A stretch of 33,238 nt of DNA from Dehalococcoidia bacterium (GTDB taxonomy: Bacteria > Chloroflexota > Dehalococcoidia > Lucifugimonadales > CAUZEB01). A model generated the notes under the pieces. It saw only the letters and a list, made by a program, of their open reading frames with translations. It had not been told where the DNA came from and made no database searches. The translations under genes were made by a program, and so were the position numbers. Of this stretch, positions 10,763 through 17,173 are shown one piece after another (position 1 is the stretch's first letter; every line of letters starts with the position of its first letter). Where the stretch lies: NCBI GenBank assembly GCA_963578655.1, contig CAUZEB010000003.1, positions 1 to 33,238 on the forward strand. Direction: 5' to 3'.

Positions 10763-11056
10763 TTGAATGTTGGAATTTACAAAGTCAAAATACGACTACC
10801 AGAGAACCAAACCTTGAAAGGTAAGCGAAGTACAATTAACTCACTTTGTCATCGCGTTAGAAACAAATTTAACGTTTCCATATCAGTGGTGGACAATCAA
10901 GATACCTGGCAATTAGCCACCGTAGGTATAAGTTACGTAAGTAATGATACACGACAAACCAATAAAGTACTCGATCACGTAGTCACCTTCCTTCAATCGG
11001 CTAGAGGTGACATTGATCTGGTTAGTTACGAACAGGAAACCCTCACGGGTTTTTAA
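10763..11056 (+). CDS. DUF503 (YlxP-like) protein
   Basis: LPENQTLKGKRS..RVRNKFNVSIS.VD.QDTWQ.A.VG pattern; GGAGG RBS. Confidence 0.88.
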   Translation: MNVGIYKVKIRLPENQTLKGKRSTINSLCHRVRNKFNVSISVVDNQDTWQLATVGISYVSNDTRQTNKVLDHVVTFLQSARGDIDLVSYEQETLTGF

Positions 11057-11143: not shown

Positions 11144-11524
11144 ATGATGCATCAAAACGAGGAAATACATAGAAACCAAGAACGCATCAAATTACTTTTA
11201 CATACAGAGGAAATTGCAATATTGATCACCTCTCTCAGTGCATTAAGATCAGAACTAGCGCTTGCTGATGAACAAATTAGGGAACTTCAAGTCCCAGAAA
11301 TAAAAATTCGCATCCCAGATAATCTGTTTCAAAGCTTAGATCCCATTATCGATTCCATATCTAGAAATGTAATGGAACAAAGTGAACGATATTTTGAGGA
11401 GAAGAAAGATTTAGAAGGGAAACAATTATTCCACTCTACAATGCACGAACGCTGGCAATGGCATTCCCAACTTATAGAGCTTATGCAATTGGTTCTGGCA
11501 GCAGCATATAGGGAAAACGGGTAA
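11144..11524 (+). CDS. hypothetical, predicted helical protein
   Basis: 126-aa ORF with an AGGAG RBS, protein-like composition and no competing gene; family not recognised. Confidence 0.7.
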   Translation: MMHQNEEIHRNQERIKLLLHTEEIAILITSLSALRSELALADEQIRELQVPEIKIRIPDNLFQSLDPIIDSISRNVMEQSERYFEEKKDLEGKQLFHSTMHERWQWHSQLIELMQLVLAAAYRENG

Positions 11525-11860
11525 CCCTACTAGTTAAGTTATCTTAGCCCACGTTCAGGCCACTTTTACAGATACTCGCTATCAACACTTTACTGTCACA
11601 TGTCTTTTACCCATAGGACCACTCCGTGTACCTGTTATCGTGTTACTAGGGTCTTATATATTTAATATCTCTAATATTTGCACGTTACGACATCACTATG
11701 AGCTTTTAGTTACTAAACTATAATCCAATTGACTCGTTGTAAAACTTATGATAAGTTCCAACCATAAGTAACAAAAAACCCCGTGTGTAATTCTTACATG
11801 CTCGGTCTGTGAAATTGTATTCAGTGTTACTGTATTACTACTAACTGAGGAGGGAATATT

Positions 11861-12148
11861 ATGGCTACTGGTGAAGGCAAATTTGAGGCAGAAATTATTT
11901 ATTGCGTCCCTTGAGCTCACCTCGGTACGGCGGTCTGGATGGCCTCCGAGATTTTCGCTGAAGGTGGAAAGGATGTTGCCCTGAAGATTACCCCTGGTAC
12001 TGCTGGAATACTACAGGTTTTTATAGACGGTGACAAAGTATATGATAAGGCAGAAGAGGACGGACAGTTCCCGACATTACCCCGCGTTAAGGAAATACGT
12101 GCTATTGTTAGGGAACGACTGGATTCTCTATCATTGAATGCTGATTGA
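11861..12148 (+). CDS. SelW/Rdx-family selenoprotein (CxxU; Sec at UGA 11912-11914), 95 aa
   Basis: GAGGAGG RBS, then ATG 11861: MATGEGKFEAEIYYCVP-U-AHLGTAVW, continuing in frame into track ORF 11939-12148. That ORF carries the Rdx-type C-terminus (GTAGILQVFIDGDKVYDK..GQFP). Confidence 0.88.
11921..11950 (+). promoter_or_regulatory. putative bacterial SECIS element
   Basis: CTCGG(11921-25)/CCGAG(11946-50) and GGC(11929-31)/GCC(11942-44) stems enclose GGTCTGG; the GGTCTG begins 18 nt after the UGA. Confidence 0.6.
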
Positions 12149-12172
12149 TTTTTTTGTTTTAACACGGATTTT

Positions 12173-12206
12173 AAAGCTCTAGGCTTAACCAGCCTAGAGC
12201 TTTTTT
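12173..12206 (+). terminator. intrinsic terminator after the selenoprotein gene
   Basis: AAAGCTCTAGGCT-TAACC-AGCCTAGAGCTTT is a perfect 13-bp inverted repeat running into T6. Confidence 0.9.
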
Positions 12207-12303
12207 ACTTGGATTCACCCCCATATCATAATATTTAAGAACCTCACATTTCTATCCTGATGTGAACTAAGCTTCAAATAAAAAGTCCCGGAGATGAGGT
12301 GAT

Positions 12304-14239
12304 GTGTTGGGCGCTTTAGATGGTATTACTATTCTGGAAATTACCGGTAATATGTCAGGTGCAATAGTTACCATGCTACTTTGTGATAACGGGGCTAGAG
12401 TCATACGTGTAGAAAACGACATACACACTAACGCGAGAAATACTCCAGAATATGCGGTTTGGGACAGGGGTAAAGAAAAGTTTCATTTGAATCTACATAA
12501 GGATTCTGAAGCCAATAAGCACGATTCATTAGACATATCCAGTTTTTTTACCAATTAGTGAAAAGTATCGATGTCTTGGTTACGGACTCGATGACACAGT
12601 GGCATTCGATGATGGATATCACCTACCATAAACTTTCAGTCATTAACCATCAATTAATCTATTGCTCCATATCTTCATATGGCGGAGAGAGGGCCCTACA
12701 ACATGACTTCTCGTTAGATGATCTAGTTATGGCTCGTACGGGCATTTTATCGTCACAACCTTTCTTCCGTCCAGGTCCTGTACATGTGATACATCCCTTG
12801 CCGAGTATAGGCGCATCCCTGTGGGCATCCATAGGGACCGTCGCTGCTCTATATGCTAGAGAGAAAACGGGGGTCGGAAGAAAAGTAGCAACTTCCCTTA
12901 TGGCTGAGAGTTTAATGTTCGCCCCAAAAACACTCGGGGAACACCTTTCAGATTTCTTTTCCCTAATTCACCCACAGATGGTGGACCTTTCTATAGCCTG
13001 TATGAATGTGCAGACGGTGAATGGATCCAGTTAGGTTATGTTCATGGAGGATTTATTGATATTGCGATATCAGTCATGAGTATAGCTCACTTAATTACAG
13101 AACCGAAATTTGGGGAAGGAAGAAATCCAGATTCCGAACACTCCAGACGAGTACTCTTTGAAATAGTCAGAGATGTCATAAAGACTAAGGCATTTAACGA
13201 ATGGGAAGACTTATTTGAAGATGCCGATGTCCCATTCGCCAAAGCATACACAACGGACGAAAGTATGGACAATCCCCAAGTTCGATTTAACAATATGGTA
13301 GTAACTGTAACAGATCACGAACTTGGGGATATGATGCAAATGGGCAACTCGATTAAATTTATCAAATCGCCCGGTGAAATCAAGAATGGGAAGCAAATTA
13401 GTCATTTACATAATAACCCGACTTTCGCCGAGTTATTGAAAAGCTTATCAATTAAAAACATCCCCAGTAGTACGACTAAAATGAGTAAGGAAGATCTACT
13501 GCCAACTTCCTTAGAAGGGGTTAAAGTTGTCGAACTAACAAATGTAATTGCAGGACCTATGGCAGGCAAAATCCTAGCAGATTTGGGGGCTAACTGTATC
13601 AAGATAGAACCTCATTATGGTGATATTTCGCGTGCAGGAGGATCTGAGTTCTTCATTCATCTAAATTCCAATAAACGTTCTATATGCTTGGATGCAAAGA
13701 CCAAATCAGGAAAATCTATAATACAGAAGTTAGTTTCGAAAGCAGATGTAATTCTAGATAACATGCGCCCCGGTGCGGGAGATCGTATGGGTGTTGGACA
13801 TGAATCCATGACCAAGCTCAATCCTAACATAACTGATACCCACGTCACAGGCTATGGATCATCGGGACCATATTCTTAAAGACCGGGTGTCGCGGCCCCT
13901 GGTGAAAGCTCTAACAGGATTGCATCGAGCCCAGAGCGGGACAGAGAATCCGCCGAATTTGGCAGTTATAACTCGAACGTCTGCTTACAGTTACTGCATG
14001 ACGTTGGAGTTCCTTGAGCACCAGTAACAACTAACTATGGGATAAAGTTTTTCTCTGACCCACAGGCAATCGCCAATAACATGATTATAGAACACAATCA
14101 CAGAAATTTCGGCAAACTTAAATTCTCACATAATTTAATAAATTTTGGAGCAACGAAAGAGATATATGCTAGGACAACCCCATTTCTTGGAGAGCATACC
14201 GCTGAGATCCTGAAGGAATTAGTGATTGACTATCGATGA
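12304..14239 (+). pseudogene. degraded double-domain CaiB/BaiF (family III) CoA-transferase
   Basis: Fragments ALDGITILE..DNGARVIRVE..WDRGK, YECADGEWIQL, LEGVKVVELTNVIAGP..LADLGA..KIEP..NSNKRS..DNMRPG and PFLGEHTAEILKEL. They are broken by frameshifts (about 12545, 12960, 13893), an in-frame TAA at 13877 and an apparent internal deletion. Confidence 0.82.
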
Positions 14240-14293
14240 CGCTATACTTGGCCTAAATACTGTAACCAATAGAAAGCAGAAAGTTAAATTTAA

Positions 14294-17173
14294 GTGGACA
14301 AAAAAGTGGCATCACACGAGGAAAATCAAGGTAACATTACCCCTTTAAAACTTCCACCTGTTTTAATTGCTATTGCAATCATTCTTGTAATAGCCTCACA
14401 AATACTTGTACATCATTTCGCGCCTGTTTTGGTAATAACGCCACTTGTAATCGCTACGGTAATTGTTTCACTGGTTGTTTCGGGAAAGAAGTATCGTAAA
14501 CTAGATAAAATTAATATCGTCCCATATCGCATTGCTTATCCTACATCTGACAACGCTAGAATACTGGAAAAAAAACTCGGATTGGTATTTATCTCCTTGG
14601 GTACTCTAGCACTAATTATTTCACTTACTTTCTTTTCGTTAGGACCTCCCCACATCTTAGGTTGGCTGTCCTACAGCACAGCCGTGGCATTTATTCTACT
14701 CAGTCTCCCAGCATTTGACGGAGGATGTACTAGATTCATTAGATGTATTTCACAGGGCAAAATTATCTCCATTAATCTTAAAGACATTCCGATTTGGATA
14801 GCATTAGGACTAATCCTATCTGTGGCTTTGGCCTTAAGACTTTACGAACTCCAAGAACTCCCAGCAGGGTTTTGGTATGACGAAGCCGCCAATTTAAGTA
14901 TCGCGCAGCAAATACAAGAAGATCCAAGTTCCACTCCAGTGTTCTCTAGAGTTATTCCAATATTTTATCTCGTCCCCACAGCCATCCTTATCAGTATATT
15001 AGACATCACACCATCTTCAATACGGCTTATAAGTGTCGCTTTCTCTATCTCTGGAATAGTTGTCTTATTTCTCCTGACACGATTCGTCTTGGGTACCTAC
15101 CCAGCGTTACTGTCGGCGTTGTTATTGGGAGTAATGAGATGGGATATTAACTTTAGTAGAATTGGTATGGTCCCGATAACAATGACCCTTACTACAAGCT
15201 TGGCAGCTTATCTCACCTTAAAGGCAATAGAGCGAGGACATATATCTGCATATGGATACGCTGGCGTAGCATTGGGTTTTGGATTTTGGTTTTACACCTC
15301 TTTCTACGTTTTCCCCATTGTAATCGGATGTATTTTTATTCATCATTTCGTCACTGAACGCCCCAGCCTAAGACCATTTATATCCAAAATAACCGTCATG
15401 CTCACAATCGCTCTATGTATTGCCGCTCCAGTCGCCCAATATGCTTTTCTTAACCCCGACTCTTTTTTCGCAAGGATCGAATCCACGAGTGTGTTTTCTG
15501 AGGTTCCCTTGAACGAAATTTTGAGTGATATTAAATCCGGATTTATGAAACATGCCCTTATGTTTCATTCAAAAGGAGACCTCAATCCACGACACAACCT
15601 ACCAGGATCTCCTATGCTCGACTTTCTTTCGGGAACCCTACTACTACTAGGGCTAATGATCACTATAGTGAAATGGAGAAATATAGGTCTATTCTGTCTC
15701 CCGGTGTGGCTTTTTATAATGATGGTCCCTGGCATATTTACCGTACCTGGGGAAGCTCCTCAAGCTCTTAGATCTATAGGTGTTACGCCAGCTATAGCTA
15801 TACTTATCACAATAGCGATTTACACCATTTGGATAACAGGGCGTTCATCTGAGTGGATCATTTTAAGGAAATCAACCCCTTTTGCCGTCATATTAATTCT
15901 GGGAGTTATTGCAACGAGTAATATTAATACCTATTTTCATACACAAGCTAATCATCCAGATGTATTCACATTATTTAGTACTGACGAAACGTTGATCGGT
16001 GAACACATGCTGAAATTACAGCAAGAGGGTTACAGCATGCTAGTTTCTGGTCAATTTCAATACAGTCTAAACAGATCTCTATTTGCAAATGAACCACGTG
16101 TCGGAGTGGTTAAAGGACCTGAGTCGATACCTATTCATACAAGCTCAGTTTGGCTAGGAGCTTCTATATATCTGGAGCCTCGAGAGAAAAATTTCTACGA
16201 ACTTCTAAACCTTTATTATCCTGAAGCACTATTTAAAGAAATTCGCCCGCCTAATGGAGGAGACATTTTATTCTATTCAGCAGTTATCAGCAGAGAACAA
16301 CTTGAAGCCAAGCAAGGGTTAATAGCCGAATATAGCCTAGCAGATAACTCTGTTAAAGAGATGATACAAAGCAACACAGGAGGCATTTGGCTTGCTGGTT
16401 TCAAATCGCAAGACATGCCTCTTAATCTTTTATGGAAGGGTTCTATACACATTAACACACCAGGTGAATACTCATTCATTCTGGAAGGAACGGCCGACAT
16501 TGATGTAATGCTAGACGGACGGAACATTCTGAATAAGCATCACGATGTCATACACATTAAGCCTGCTATCGGAATGCACTCAATACTCGTGACAGGACGT
16601 TTGGTTACTCGCAATGACGTTTTCAGGTTACTATGGCGCCCACCCAACGGTGAAGTAACAGCTATCCCGACCGAACATCTCTATCACGGAACGATTCGAC
16701 CGATGGGCTTATCCGGACGTTTTTACACGCTGCATGGAGATTCTACAGCCGCCCTGAACCTGACTACAACGAAAATTCCAGACGCCACTGTCTTAACGCC
16801 ATCCATGGATGCATTCTGGTACACCCCAGTAGTCTCGCATCCTTACATGGCAACATGGGATGGCTCGTTAAATGTGCTTGAAGAGGATACCTATACTTTT
16901 AAGGTTCATAGCACGGGAAAGGTAAGGTTGACGATAGACGGGTTCATTAACTTGGAACACCCTCCAACCAAGAGCATTGCATCAGAAAAAAGAGTGACTT
17001 TGAAATCGGGTCAGCACCGGATACGAGTAGATTACACGTCTATTACTCCACTATCTCGTTTTGAGATTTTATGGGCAAACTCGAACGAAGAATTAAAACC
17101 CATACCTATTGAACTACTGTCACCCAACGTAGACCACTTATTCAGCATAGTAGATAGTCGGACAAGAGATTAA
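14294..17173 (+). CDS. GT-C fold (ArnT/PMT_2, GT39/GT83-like) membrane glycosyltransferase with two C-terminal PA14-like domains
   Basis: Many hydrophobic segments, LRLYELQELPAGFWYDEA first-loop motif, SRIG and YTS motifs. PA14-like strands WKGSIHINTPGEYSF..VMLDG and WDGSLNVLEEDTYTF..LTIDG..GQHRIRVDY. Confidence 0.8.
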   Translation: MDKKVASHEENQGNITPLKLPPVLIAIAIILVIASQILVHHFAPVLVITPLVIATVIVSLVVSGKKYRKLDKINIVPYRIAYPTSDNARILEKKLGLVFISLGTLALIISLTFFSLGPPHILGWLSYSTAVAFILLSLPAFDGGCTRFIRCISQGKIISINLKDIPIWIALGLILSVALALRLYELQELPAGFWYDEAANLSIAQQIQEDPSSTPVFSRVIPIFYLVPTAILISILDITPSSIRLISVAFSISGIVVLFLLTRFVLGTYPALLSALLLGVMRWDINFSRIGMVPITMTLTTSLAAYLTLKAIERGHISAYGYAGVALGFGFWFYTSFYVFPIVIGCIFIHHFVTERPSLRPFISKITVMLTIALCIAAPVAQYAFLNPDSFFARIESTSVFSEVPLNEILSDIKSGFMKHALMFHSKGDLNPRHNLPGSPMLDFLSGTLLLLGLMITIVKWRNIGLFCLPVWLFIMMVPGIFTVPGEAPQALRSIGVTPAIAILITIAIYTIWITGRSSEWIILRKSTPFAVILILGVIATSNINTYFHTQANHPDVFTLFSTDETLIGEHMLKLQQEGYSMLVSGQFQYSLNRSLFANEPRVGVVKGPESIPIHTSSVWLGASIYLEPREKNFYELLNLYYPEALFKEIRPPNGGDILFYSAVISREQLEAKQGLIAEYSLADNSVKEMIQSNTGGIWLAGFKSQDMPLNLLWKGSIHINTPGEYSFILEGTADIDVMLDGRNILNKHHDVIHIKPAIGMHSILVTGRLVTRNDVFRLLWRPPNGEVTAIPTEHLYHGTIRPMGLSGRFYTLHGDSTAALNLTTTKIPDATVLTPSMDAFWYTPVVSHPYMATWDGSLNVLEEDTYTFKVHSTGKVRLTIDGFINLEHPPTKSIASEKRVTLKSGQHRIRVDYTSITPLSRFEILWANSNEELKPIPIELLSPNVDHLFSIVDSRTRD

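What the first reader, a model, noticed from the sequence alone, without database searches (positions are those of the whole stretch)
11861..12206. Hidden selenoprotein: SelW/Rdx-family gene with an in-frame CxxU UGA, truncated by the ORF caller
Seen: a strong GAGGAGG RBS precedes ATG 11861, and the frame reads ...EIYYC-V-P-TGA(11912)-AHLGTAVW straight into the 69-aa track ORF. The unit ends at a strong terminator. The 69-aa ORF alone lacks the redox motif and has no comparable RBS. Established: Rdx/SelW/SelT/SelH proteins carry CxxC or CxxU right after the first beta-strand and a G-x-F-E-V..G..SK..G-x-F-P C-terminus (here GILQV..GDKVYDK..GQFP). Inference: UGA is recoded as selenocysteine, giving a monocistronic 95-aa selenoprotein. 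That implies this organism, probably SAR202-like, has selA/selB/selC/selD and further unannotated selenoproteins.
Basis: partly seen in the sequence, partly recalled or inferred. Interest (0 to 1): 0.82.

Follow-up and report, generated by a model that had tools for sequence, protein, structure and literature searches.

The report
SelW-like selenoprotein gene, called too short
This is a real but ordinary gene for a small selenium-containing redox protein (SelW-like) of a marine Dehalococcoidia/SAR202-type bacterium, which gene finders cut short because its selenocysteine codon looks like a stop.

Summary
Window 11861-12148 (+) is one 95-codon gene with an in-frame UGA at 11912-11914 inside a C-V-P-U motif.

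- **Family:** read through, it matches Pfam Rdx (E 7e-12). Its predicted fold (pLDDT 92) matches solved bacterial SelW-related proteins and mouse SelW.
- **Machinery:** the same genome holds tRNA-Sec, selA, selB and selD. selD has its own active-site UGA, and two UGSC-family genes also carry in-frame UGA.
- **Relatives:** in the 30 best orthologous loci from related genomes, 29 keep TGA at the same column and 1 has TGC. The coding signature continues upstream of the UGA. All 30 have a Shine-Dalgarno-like word before a start codon upstream of the Sec/Cys codon.
- **SECIS:** a conserved hairpin with a G-containing apical loop starts 13 nt after the UGA, which fits a bacterial SECIS.
- **Reads:** contigs from an independent DNA run and from two metatranscriptomes carry the TGA unchanged.

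Prokaryotic SelW-like (CxxU) proteins have been described since 2005 as the most abundant marine selenoprotein family. Selenoprotein-rich Dehalococcoidia are catalogued, and this scan has reported the same thing on four other genomes. This is an annotation fix, not a discovery. The substrate is unknown, and Se incorporation has not been shown experimentally.

The parts
11847..11853 (+). Shine-Dalgarno sequence GAGGAGG, 7 nt before the start codon
   Evidence: Read directly. An SD-like word lies before a start codon upstream of the Sec/Cys codon in 30 of 30 orthologous loci.
11861..12148 (+). Whole coding sequence of the SelW-like (Rdx-family) selenoprotein: 95 codons plus stop TGA 12146-12148
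   Evidence: Translation; Pfam PF10262 at 45.8 bits, E 7.3e-12; orthologues in 46 of 61 related genomes, G000 included; AF2 model with pLDDT 92.1.
11903..11905 (+). Cys15 codon (TGC), the resolving cysteine of the CxxU motif
   Evidence: Invariant column C15 in alignment A2. It aligns with the first Cys of the CxxC motif in solved bacterial SelW-related proteins.
11912..11914 (+). In-frame UGA read as selenocysteine (residue 18)
   Evidence: TGA at the same column in 29 of 30 orthologous loci and TGC in 1. It aligns with the second Cys of CxxC in PDB homologues. It is unchanged in the contigs of runs X2, X5 and X8.
11928..11948 (+). SECIS-like hairpin: stem 11928-11935 / 11941-11948 with one C-U mismatch, and apical loop UGGAU at 11936-11940. 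The stem starts 13 nt after the UGA and the loop 21 nt after it.
   Evidence: Fold energy -10.5 kcal/mol, 92% of the ensemble, z -1.93. It is conserved in the 30 loci, with 5 of 8 pairs changed on both sides.
11939..11941 (+). Internal ATG (Met27), the false start of the 69-aa ORF; it lies in the loop and stem of the hairpin
   Evidence: Met27 is a nearly invariant internal residue.
12173..12203 (+). Intrinsic terminator: 13-bp stem, 5-nt loop, then a T run
   Evidence: The stem is conserved in the same-genus genome G001.

Best explanation
Window 11861-12148 (+) is a single-gene unit for a 95-residue SelW-like (Rdx-family) selenoprotein. Translation starts at ATG 11861, behind a strong Shine-Dalgarno sequence. 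UGA 11912 is not a stop. SelB carrying Sec-tRNA(Sec) is recruited by the hairpin at 11928-11948 (a bacterial SECIS within the coding sequence) and inserts selenocysteine at residue 18. Translation ends at UGA 12146, and transcription mostly ends at the terminator 12173-12203.

The product has a small thioredoxin-like fold (b1-a1-b2-b3-b4-a2), with the C15-V-P-U18 redox centre between strand 1 and helix 1. Inferred, not shown: Sec18 is the attacking nucleophile of a thiol/selenol-disulfide-type oxidoreductase. It would form a selenenylsulfide with Cys15 that a cellular thiol reductant reduces again. The substrate is unknown, as it is for the whole prokaryotic family.
For: **Family**
- Pfam Rdx scores 45.8 bits against a cut-off of 22.6, covering residues 11-84 and profile positions 3-73 of 74. 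The 69-aa ORF alone reaches 24.5 bits.
- A profile of the 30 orthologues hits six solved bacterial SelW-related proteins (E 2e-13 to 6e-11) and mouse SelW (E 0.003). C-V-P-U aligns with their C-x-x-C.
- The AF2 model has pLDDT 92.1 and pTM 0.82, with elements E8-15, H21-38, E39-46, E51-55, E58-62, H63-66 and H73-94.
- The top Foldseek matches are 2oka, 3dex, 2ojl, 2fa8, 2obk and 2p0g (TMq 0.64-0.73). Mouse SelW 2npb gives TMq 0.73.

**Recoding**
- The own genome holds tRNA-Sec at 70.8 bits (cut-off 47), which ARAGORN calls tRNA-SeC with anticodon TCA.
- It holds selA at 426 bits, selB at 350.8 bits and selD at 373 bits. selD has a TGA in ...SCAGUASK....
- Two UGSC-family genes each carry one in-frame TGA.
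- In the 30 best loci from related genomes, 29 read C-V-P-TGA and 1 reads C-V-P-TGC.
- In the 10 codons before the UGA, mean pairwise difference is 0.22 / 0.10 / 0.57 at codon positions 1 / 2 / 3. This is a coding signature.
- An SD-like word lies before a start codon upstream of the Sec/Cys codon in 30 of 30 loci.
- selB is over its cut-off in 53 of 61 related genomes. It is found in 38 of the 41 whose best match holds a TGA.

**SECIS**
- The hairpin folds at -10.5 kcal/mol.
- On the 30-sequence alignment, 77.9% of cells pair and 5 of 8 pairs show changes on both sides. The covariation score is 0.255 against 0.171 in shuffles (0 of 500 reach it), and at most 0.131 when partners are slid.
- One ortholog changes Met to Ile (ATT), which keeps the closing pair with GCA.

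**Reads**
- An independent DNA run (X2) covers 11755-12186 with 0 differences.
- RNA contigs X5 (11776-12400) and X8 (11783-12162), from two studies, show 0 differences.
- Loose ends of relatives' contigs read TGC-GTN-CCN-TGA.
Against: - No selenium incorporation, protein or peptide has been observed. Everything here is comparative.
- NCBIfam TIGR02174 (CXXU_selWTH) scores 31.6 bits, just under its cut-off of 34.2. The equivalog NF041051 scores 32.4 against 88.
- The hairpin lies in a conserved A-A/V-W-M-A peptide, and the one Cys-form ortholog (L031) keeps it too. Part of its conservation is therefore protein constraint.
- The 71-nt fold around it is no better than shuffles (z -0.18). The short hairpin reaches only z -1.93.
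- The structure tested was derived from these same sequences, which favours it.
- Rfam found nothing in the window at gathering thresholds.
- Three genomes with a TGA-bearing match showed no selB: G025 (81% complete), G029 (91%) and G034 (74%).
- The RNA runs are contigs, so they do not prove transcription. The X5 contig runs on through the terminator.
- The genome is a MAG that is 87% complete with 6.4% contamination. The machinery genes lie on other contigs.
Confidence: 0.95

Rival explanations
1. UGA 11912 is an ordinary stop. The real product is the 69-aa ORF from ATG 11939 (a truncated Rdx domain without a redox centre), with or without a 17-codon leader peptide upstream.
For: A standard ORF list gives exactly this ORF. 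Public protein collections hold 75 such 63-71-aa forms among 78 hits. The 69-aa piece alone just passes the Pfam cut-off (24.5 against 22.6 bits).
Against: - The 17 upstream codons are conserved as protein, with invariant I12, Y14, C15, V16 and P17. Third-position variation there is 0.57, against 0.10-0.22 at positions 1 and 2.
- They supply strand b1 and the redox motif of the fold.
- The SD-like word sits before the upstream start in 30 of 30 loci, but before the internal ATG in only 8 of 30.
- The internal ATG is buried in the hairpin.
- The truncated database forms are gene-caller output, not observed proteins.
Confidence: 0.02
2. The TGA is a sequencing or assembly error for TGC/TGT, so the gene is a plain Cys-form Rdx protein.
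For: The same contig carries two 1-nt deletions in T runs in the next gene, compared with the same-genus genome, so it may not be error-free. One ortholog (G053) really has TGC.
Against: - TGA is at the same column in 29 of 30 loci from different genomes.
- Contigs of an independent DNA run and two RNA runs cover the place with 0 differences.
- The suspected errors in the next gene are homopolymer indels, not substitutions.
Confidence: 0.005
3. The organism reads TGA as a sense codon throughout (Trp or Gly, as in NCBI tables 4 or 25), so residue 18 is not Sec.
For: Two database relatives are recorded with W at this position (P0004 and P0005), evidently called under such a code.
Against: - The gene itself ends at TGA 12146.
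- Three of the 21 open frames of at least 250 codons in the window close with TGA.
- The position aligns with the catalytic Cys of CxxC homologues.
- A dedicated tRNA-Sec and selB are present.
- Only one of 15 motif-bearing in-frame TGAs in the window looks like real coding sequence.
Confidence: 0.005
4. The gene is a decaying pseudogene whose nonsense mutation happens to fall in the active site.
For: The neighbouring CoA-transferase genes look broken.
Against: The same 'nonsense' codon is kept across an order-wide sample. Purifying selection acts on both sides of it. The start, SD and terminator are intact.
Confidence: 0.01

Closest known systems
Prokaryotic SelW-like selenoproteins (CxxU) of marine metagenomes (Zhang, Fomenko & Gladyshev 2005, PMC1088965; Zhang & Gladyshev 2008, PMC2398784; passages read)
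   Same: Same family (Pfam Rdx), same CxxU motif, and a SECIS hairpin inside the coding sequence just after the UGA with G in the apical loop. It comes from seawater bacteria. In GOS the family has 427 Sec forms against 56 Cys forms and is the most abundant marine selenoprotein family. Here Sec also dominates, with 29 of 30 loci.
   Different: Nothing in kind. This copy is assigned to a Dehalococcoidia/SAR202-type MAG, and its order-wide spread is documented here.
Cys-form bacterial SelW-related proteins with solved structures (2oka, 2fa8 Atu0228, 2ojl, 3dex, 2obk, 2p0g)
   Same: Same fold (TMq 0.64-0.73, rmsd 1.8-3.1 A, 24-34% identity). The redox motif is at the same place after strand 1.
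   Different: They carry C-x-x-C (for example C-T-Q-C) and no UGA. They are structural-genomics targets of unknown function.
Mammalian selenoprotein W (mouse SelW, 2npb)
   Same: Same b1-a1-b2-b3-b4-a2 thioredoxin-like fold (TMq 0.73) and the same CxxU motif position.
   Different: Identity is only 14%, and the profile E-value is 0.003. From my own knowledge, the eukaryotic SECIS lies in the 3' UTR and eukaryotic SelW binds glutathione and 14-3-3 proteins. Neither point was tested here.
NCBIfam TIGR02174 CXXU_selWTH and NF041051 SelTWH_Campy
   Same: These were the best NCBIfam hits, over residues 11-79.
   Different: Both score below their curated cut-offs (31.6 against 34.2, and 32.4 against 88), so NCBI's pipeline would not name this protein from these models.

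Membership tests
Rdx family (Pfam PF10262: SelW/SelT/SelH/Rdx12) | Match to the family HMM above the gathering score | tested here: met
   45.8 bits against 22.6, E 7.3e-12, profile positions 3-73 of 74. The genome-level search gives 38.3 bits with 1 TGA inside.
Rdx family (Pfam PF10262) | CxxC or CxxU redox motif directly after the first beta strand | tested here: met
   C15-V-P-U18 follows E8-15 in the model. It aligns with the CxxC motif of 2oka and 2fa8 and is invariant in 30 orthologues.
Rdx family (Pfam PF10262) | Thioredoxin-like b1-a1-b2-b3-b4-a2 fold | tested here: met
   Predicted only: pLDDT 92.1. Foldseek probability is 1.00 to SelW-related structures and to mouse SelW.
Bacterial selenoprotein (Sec recoding of UGA) | In-frame UGA at a column where homologues have Cys or a conserved UGA, with conservation on both sides | tested here: met
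   29 TGA and 1 TGC among 30 loci; Cys in PDB homologues; coding signature upstream.
Bacterial selenoprotein (Sec recoding of UGA) | Complete Sec machinery in the same genome (selC, selA, selB, selD) | tested here: met
   all over curated cut-offs. selA is cut by a contig end. The genome is a MAG with 6.4% contamination, so linkage to this contig is by binning only.
Bacterial selenoprotein (Sec recoding of UGA) | SECIS stem-loop immediately downstream of the UGA with a small apical loop containing G | tested here: inconclusive
   A hairpin lies at 11928-11948 with loop UGGAU. It is conserved and shows some compensatory changes. It overlaps a conserved peptide, is kept in the Cys form, and no dedicated SECIS program or SelB-binding test was available.
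Bacterial selenoprotein (Sec recoding of UGA) | Selenium actually incorporated at the UGA | not testable with these tools
   This needs 75Se labelling or mass spectrometry.
NCBIfam TIGR02174 CXXU_selWTH (subfamily model) | Score at or above the curated cut-off of 34.2 bits | tested here: not met
   31.6 bits. This is a near miss, so I file the protein under the broader Rdx/SelW-like family and not under this model.
NCBIfam NF041051 SelTWH_Campy (equivalog) | Score at or above 88 bits | tested here: not met
   32.4 bits. It is not a member of this equivalog.

The most novel reading that the evidence does not exclude
In SAR202-type Dehalococcoidia this one small protein may be a near-core gene in which Sec, not Cys, is fixed across the order. 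41 of the 46 genomes with a match hold a TGA in their best match. The SECIS stretch is the most conserved piece of nucleotide sequence in the gene. The SelW-like gene could therefore be one of the loads that keep the whole Sec machinery in these streamlined marine genomes, with conversion to Cys going together with loss of selB. The only example seen is G036, which is 97% complete, has a TGA-free ortholog and showed no selB.
Probability: 0.25. Interest if true: 0.3.

Novelty: new member of a known kind. Interest (0 to 1): 0.12.

Why it matters
The main value is as an annotation fix. The gene should be recorded as a 95-residue selenoprotein (transl_except Sec at 11912-11914), not as a 69-residue hypothetical protein.

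The same truncation affects most of its relatives in public protein collections. Of 78 hits, 75 are 63-71-aa fragments, and two more appear to read the UGA as Trp.

The finding also adds to the evidence that marine Dehalococcoidia/SAR202 depend on selenium. This genome holds at least four selenoprotein genes. That matters for trace-element budgets and for metaproteomic search databases. It does not open a new biological question.

Tried and rejected
- **Rfam scan:** the gathering-threshold scan of the whole window found no RNA family, so it gave no ready-made SECIS model match.
- **Long fold:** folding 71 nt around the UGA gave z -0.18, no better than shuffles. Only the short hairpin stands out.
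- **RNAalifold:** on its own it kept only the four apical pairs.
- **Promoter scan:** the sigma-70 scan of 11400-12400 found no site upstream of the gene. The 5' ends of the RNA contigs at 11776 and 11783 are only a weak hint of a transcript start.
- **Taxonomy from enolase:** searching with the neighbouring enolase returned 52-58% matches from many phyla and told nothing.
- **Other selenoproteins in the window:** a motif scan (CxxU, UxxC and similar, with open flanks) gave 15 places. Only 11912 looks like coding sequence.
- **Run X3:** it has no cover over most of the gene. I draw nothing from that.
- **Complex prediction:** none was run, because no binding claim is made.
- **Supplementary files:** the supplements of the cited papers were not opened. 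The family lists in them, including BSepDB's, may already contain this gene or its orthologues.

Full report
**Observation**

- GAGGAGG lies at 11847-11853, and ATG at 11861.
- Seventeen sense codons end in TGC-GTC-CCT, followed by TGA at 11912-11914.
- The same frame then runs on to TGA 12146-12148.

Read through, the product has 95 residues: MATGEGKFEAEIIYCVPUAHLGTAVWMASE...NAD. A standard ORF list reports only the 69-aa ORF 11939-12148. A 13-bp stem terminator with a T run lies at 12173-12203. It is the only terminator-like site in 11400-12400.

**Family**

- The read-through product matches Pfam Rdx (PF10262) at 45.8 bits, E 7.3e-12. The match covers residues 11-84 and profile positions 3-73 of 74.
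- The 69-aa ORF alone reaches only 24.5 bits and covers profile positions 22-73.
- NCBIfam's two related models are the best hits there, but both fall below their cut-offs: TIGR02174 at 31.6 against 34.2, and NF041051 at 32.4 against 88.
- A profile of 30 orthologues hits six solved bacterial SelW-related proteins (E 2e-13 to 6e-11), MIEN1 and mouse SelW (E 0.003). C-V-P-U lies on their C-x-x-C.
- An AlphaFold2 model built on that alignment has pLDDT 92.1 and pTM 0.82. It shows b1(8-15), a1(21-38), b2(39-46), b3(51-55), b4(58-62), a short helix at 63-66 and a2(73-94).
- Foldseek puts the same bacterial SelW-related structures first (TMq 0.64-0.73). Mouse SelW gives TMq 0.73. Ordinary thioredoxins follow far behind.

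**Sec machinery**

The window's genome (G000) has 1.95 Mb in 230 contigs and is 87% complete with 6.4% contamination. It contains the following.
- tRNA-Sec at 70.8 bits against a cut-off of 47. ARAGORN calls it tRNA-SeC with anticodon TCA.
- selA at 426 bits, cut by a contig end.
- selB at 350.8 bits.
- selD at 373 bits, with one in-frame TGA. It reads ...SCAGUASK.... From my own knowledge this is the active-site Cys/Sec position of SelD.
- Two UGSC-family genes, each with one in-frame TGA.

**Relatives**

A search of 61 genomes (G000, one of the same genus, and 59 of the same order) found a match in 46.
- Of 64 match rows, 51 hold at least one TGA and 13 hold none.
- The best match holds a TGA in 41 genomes and none in 5.
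- I examined the 30 best loci, which are the 30 the tool returned. 29 read C-V-P-TGA and 1 (G053) reads C-V-P-TGC at the same column. Conservation runs from about residue 8 to about residue 88.
- I did not check the position of the TGA in the weaker matches.
- In the ten codons before the UGA, mean pairwise difference is 0.22 / 0.10 / 0.57 at codon positions 1 / 2 / 3, so the upstream part is under protein-level selection. In the ten codons after it the figures are 0.21 / 0.29 / 0.37, so third positions are held back there.
- An SD-like word precedes a start codon upstream of the Sec/Cys codon in 30 of 30 loci. It precedes the internal ATG in 8 of 30.
- selB is over its cut-off in 53 of 61 of these genomes.
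- Of the 41 genomes with a TGA-bearing best match, 38 have selB. The exceptions are G025 (81% complete), G029 (91%) and G034 (74%).
- Of the five genomes with a TGA-free best match, four have selB. G036 (97% complete) does not.

**SECIS**

A hairpin lies at 11928-11948, beginning 13 nt after the UGA. It reads CGG-C-GGUC / UGGAU / GGCC-U-CCG.
- It folds at -10.5 kcal/mol and takes 92% of the ensemble. Its z-score is -1.93, and 7 of 200 shuffles fold as well.
- On the ungapped 30-sequence alignment, 77.9% of cells pair and 5 of 8 pairs have changes on both sides.
- The covariation score is 0.255, against 0.171 +/- 0.014 in shuffles (0 of 500 reach it), and at most 0.131 when partners are slid.
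- RNAalifold keeps the four apical pairs.
- Third-position pairs switch between G-C, A-U and C-G. One ortholog replaces Met by Ile (ATT) opposite GCA.
- The position and the small G-containing loop agree with the description of bacterial SECIS elements in PMC1088965 (passages read).

Several caveats apply.
- The stretch also encodes a conserved A-A/V-W-M-A peptide.
- The Cys-form ortholog keeps the hairpin.
- The structure tested was derived from these same sequences.
- The 71-nt fold is unremarkable.
- Rfam found nothing.

I therefore rate the SECIS as likely but not proven.

**Reads**

- Contigs of an independent seawater DNA run (X2) cover 11755-11918 and 11898-12186 with 0 differences.
- RNA-library contigs from two studies cover 11776-12400 (X5) and 11783-12162 (X8) with 0 differences.
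- Several contigs of relatives overlap only 11923-11976. Their loose ends read TGC-GTN-CCN-TGA.
- This excludes a sequencing error at the TGA. It also shows that the gene, UGA included, is present in RNA libraries.
- Contigs cannot prove transcription or transcript ends, and X5 runs on past the terminator.

**Other rivals**

A genome-wide sense reading of TGA is excluded for three reasons.
- The gene ends at TGA.
- TGA closes 3 of the 21 open frames of at least 250 codons in the window.
- No other in-frame TGA with a redox motif looks like coding sequence.

**Taxon**

Named records that hold orthologues are MAGs titled Dehalococcoidia (best 88% identity), SAR202 cluster (76% and 69%) and Chloroflexota/Chloroflexi. 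The sequencing runs that hold the stretch are labelled seawater metagenomes.

**What is known**

- SelW-like proteins with CxxU were reported as bacterial selenoproteins from the Sargasso Sea in 2005 (PMC1088965, passages).
- In the GOS data they were the most abundant marine selenoprotein family, with 427 Sec forms against 56 Cys homologues (PMC2398784, passages including Table 2).
- BSepDB (PMC13326102, passages) lists Dehalococcoidia MAGs with 46 and 49 selenoproteins. It describes truncated annotation at Sec-UGA as the usual error.
- Searches for 'SAR202' with 'selenocysteine' (3 papers, none on this topic by title), 'Chloroflexi' with 'selenoproteome' and 'Dehalococcoidia' with 'selenoprotein' found no paper devoted to this protein in this lineage.
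- In the protein collection, 75 of 78 relatives are 63-71-aa fragments, and JGI names five of them 'predicted Rdx family selenoprotein'.
- Of the three full-length entries, one has Cys and two have W at the Sec column. I infer that the W comes from a gene caller using a TGA=Trp code.
- This scan has already reported the same gene family, with the same verdict, on four other genomes.

**Verdict**

This is a genuine SelW-like selenoprotein gene with a probable in-frame SECIS, in a selenium-using marine Dehalococcoidia/SAR202-type bacterium. It is a new member of a well-known kind and an annotation fix. Its catalytic role as a selenol/thiol oxidoreductase is inferred from the motif and the fold. 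Its substrate is unknown.

Noticed in passing
window 12304-13879 (+): The CoA-transferase family III gene just downstream is split over three frames: 84 aa (profile 1-73), 158 aa (profile 85-212) and 267 aa. The same-genus genome G001 has one intact ORF of at least 458 aa here. Against G001, the window has 1-nt deletions in two T runs (alignment columns 404 and 819) and one 3-nt deletion. This is either a real pseudogene or homopolymer errors in the assembly.
   Followed up: partly
window 13076-14240 (+): The 267-aa piece carries the start of a second CoA_transf_3 domain (residues 146-267 on profile positions 1-129). After 13879 there are only short ORFs without a Pfam match. A second copy, tandem or fused, also seems to be broken.
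   Followed up: partly
G000 contig 115:134-1048 (L023); contig 1:40361-40798 (L157); contig 174:837-1271 (L158): There are three more selenoprotein genes in the same genome. selD has U in SCAGUASK, and two UGSC-family genes each carry one in-frame TGA.
   Followed up: partly
proteins P0004 and P0005: Two full-length database relatives have Trp at the Sec column (C-V-P-W). I take this to be a gene caller reading TGA as Trp. It is a second kind of mis-annotation, besides truncation.
   Followed up: no
window 11144-11524 (+) and 10763-11056 (+): A 126-aa ORF without any Pfam family sits between a DUF503 gene and the SelW-like gene. The same order (97 aa, 126 aa, SelW-like) is kept in the same-genus genome.
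   Followed up: no
window 11923-11976: In seawater DNA and RNA runs, many contigs of other lineages match the window only over this roughly 54-nt stretch, at 90-95% identity. This stretch is the SECIS hairpin and its flanks, and it is the most conserved nucleotide sequence of the gene.
   Followed up: partly
window 11776-11783: RNA-library contigs from two studies begin at 11776 and 11783, about 80 nt before the start codon, while DNA contigs run on upstream. This is a weak hint of a transcription start. The promoter scan found no sigma-70-like site there.
   Followed up: no
window 14294-17173 (+): A 959-aa protein has a PMT_2 glycosyltransferase domain (residues 230-381) and a C-terminal PA14 domain (residues 851-919).
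   Followed up: no
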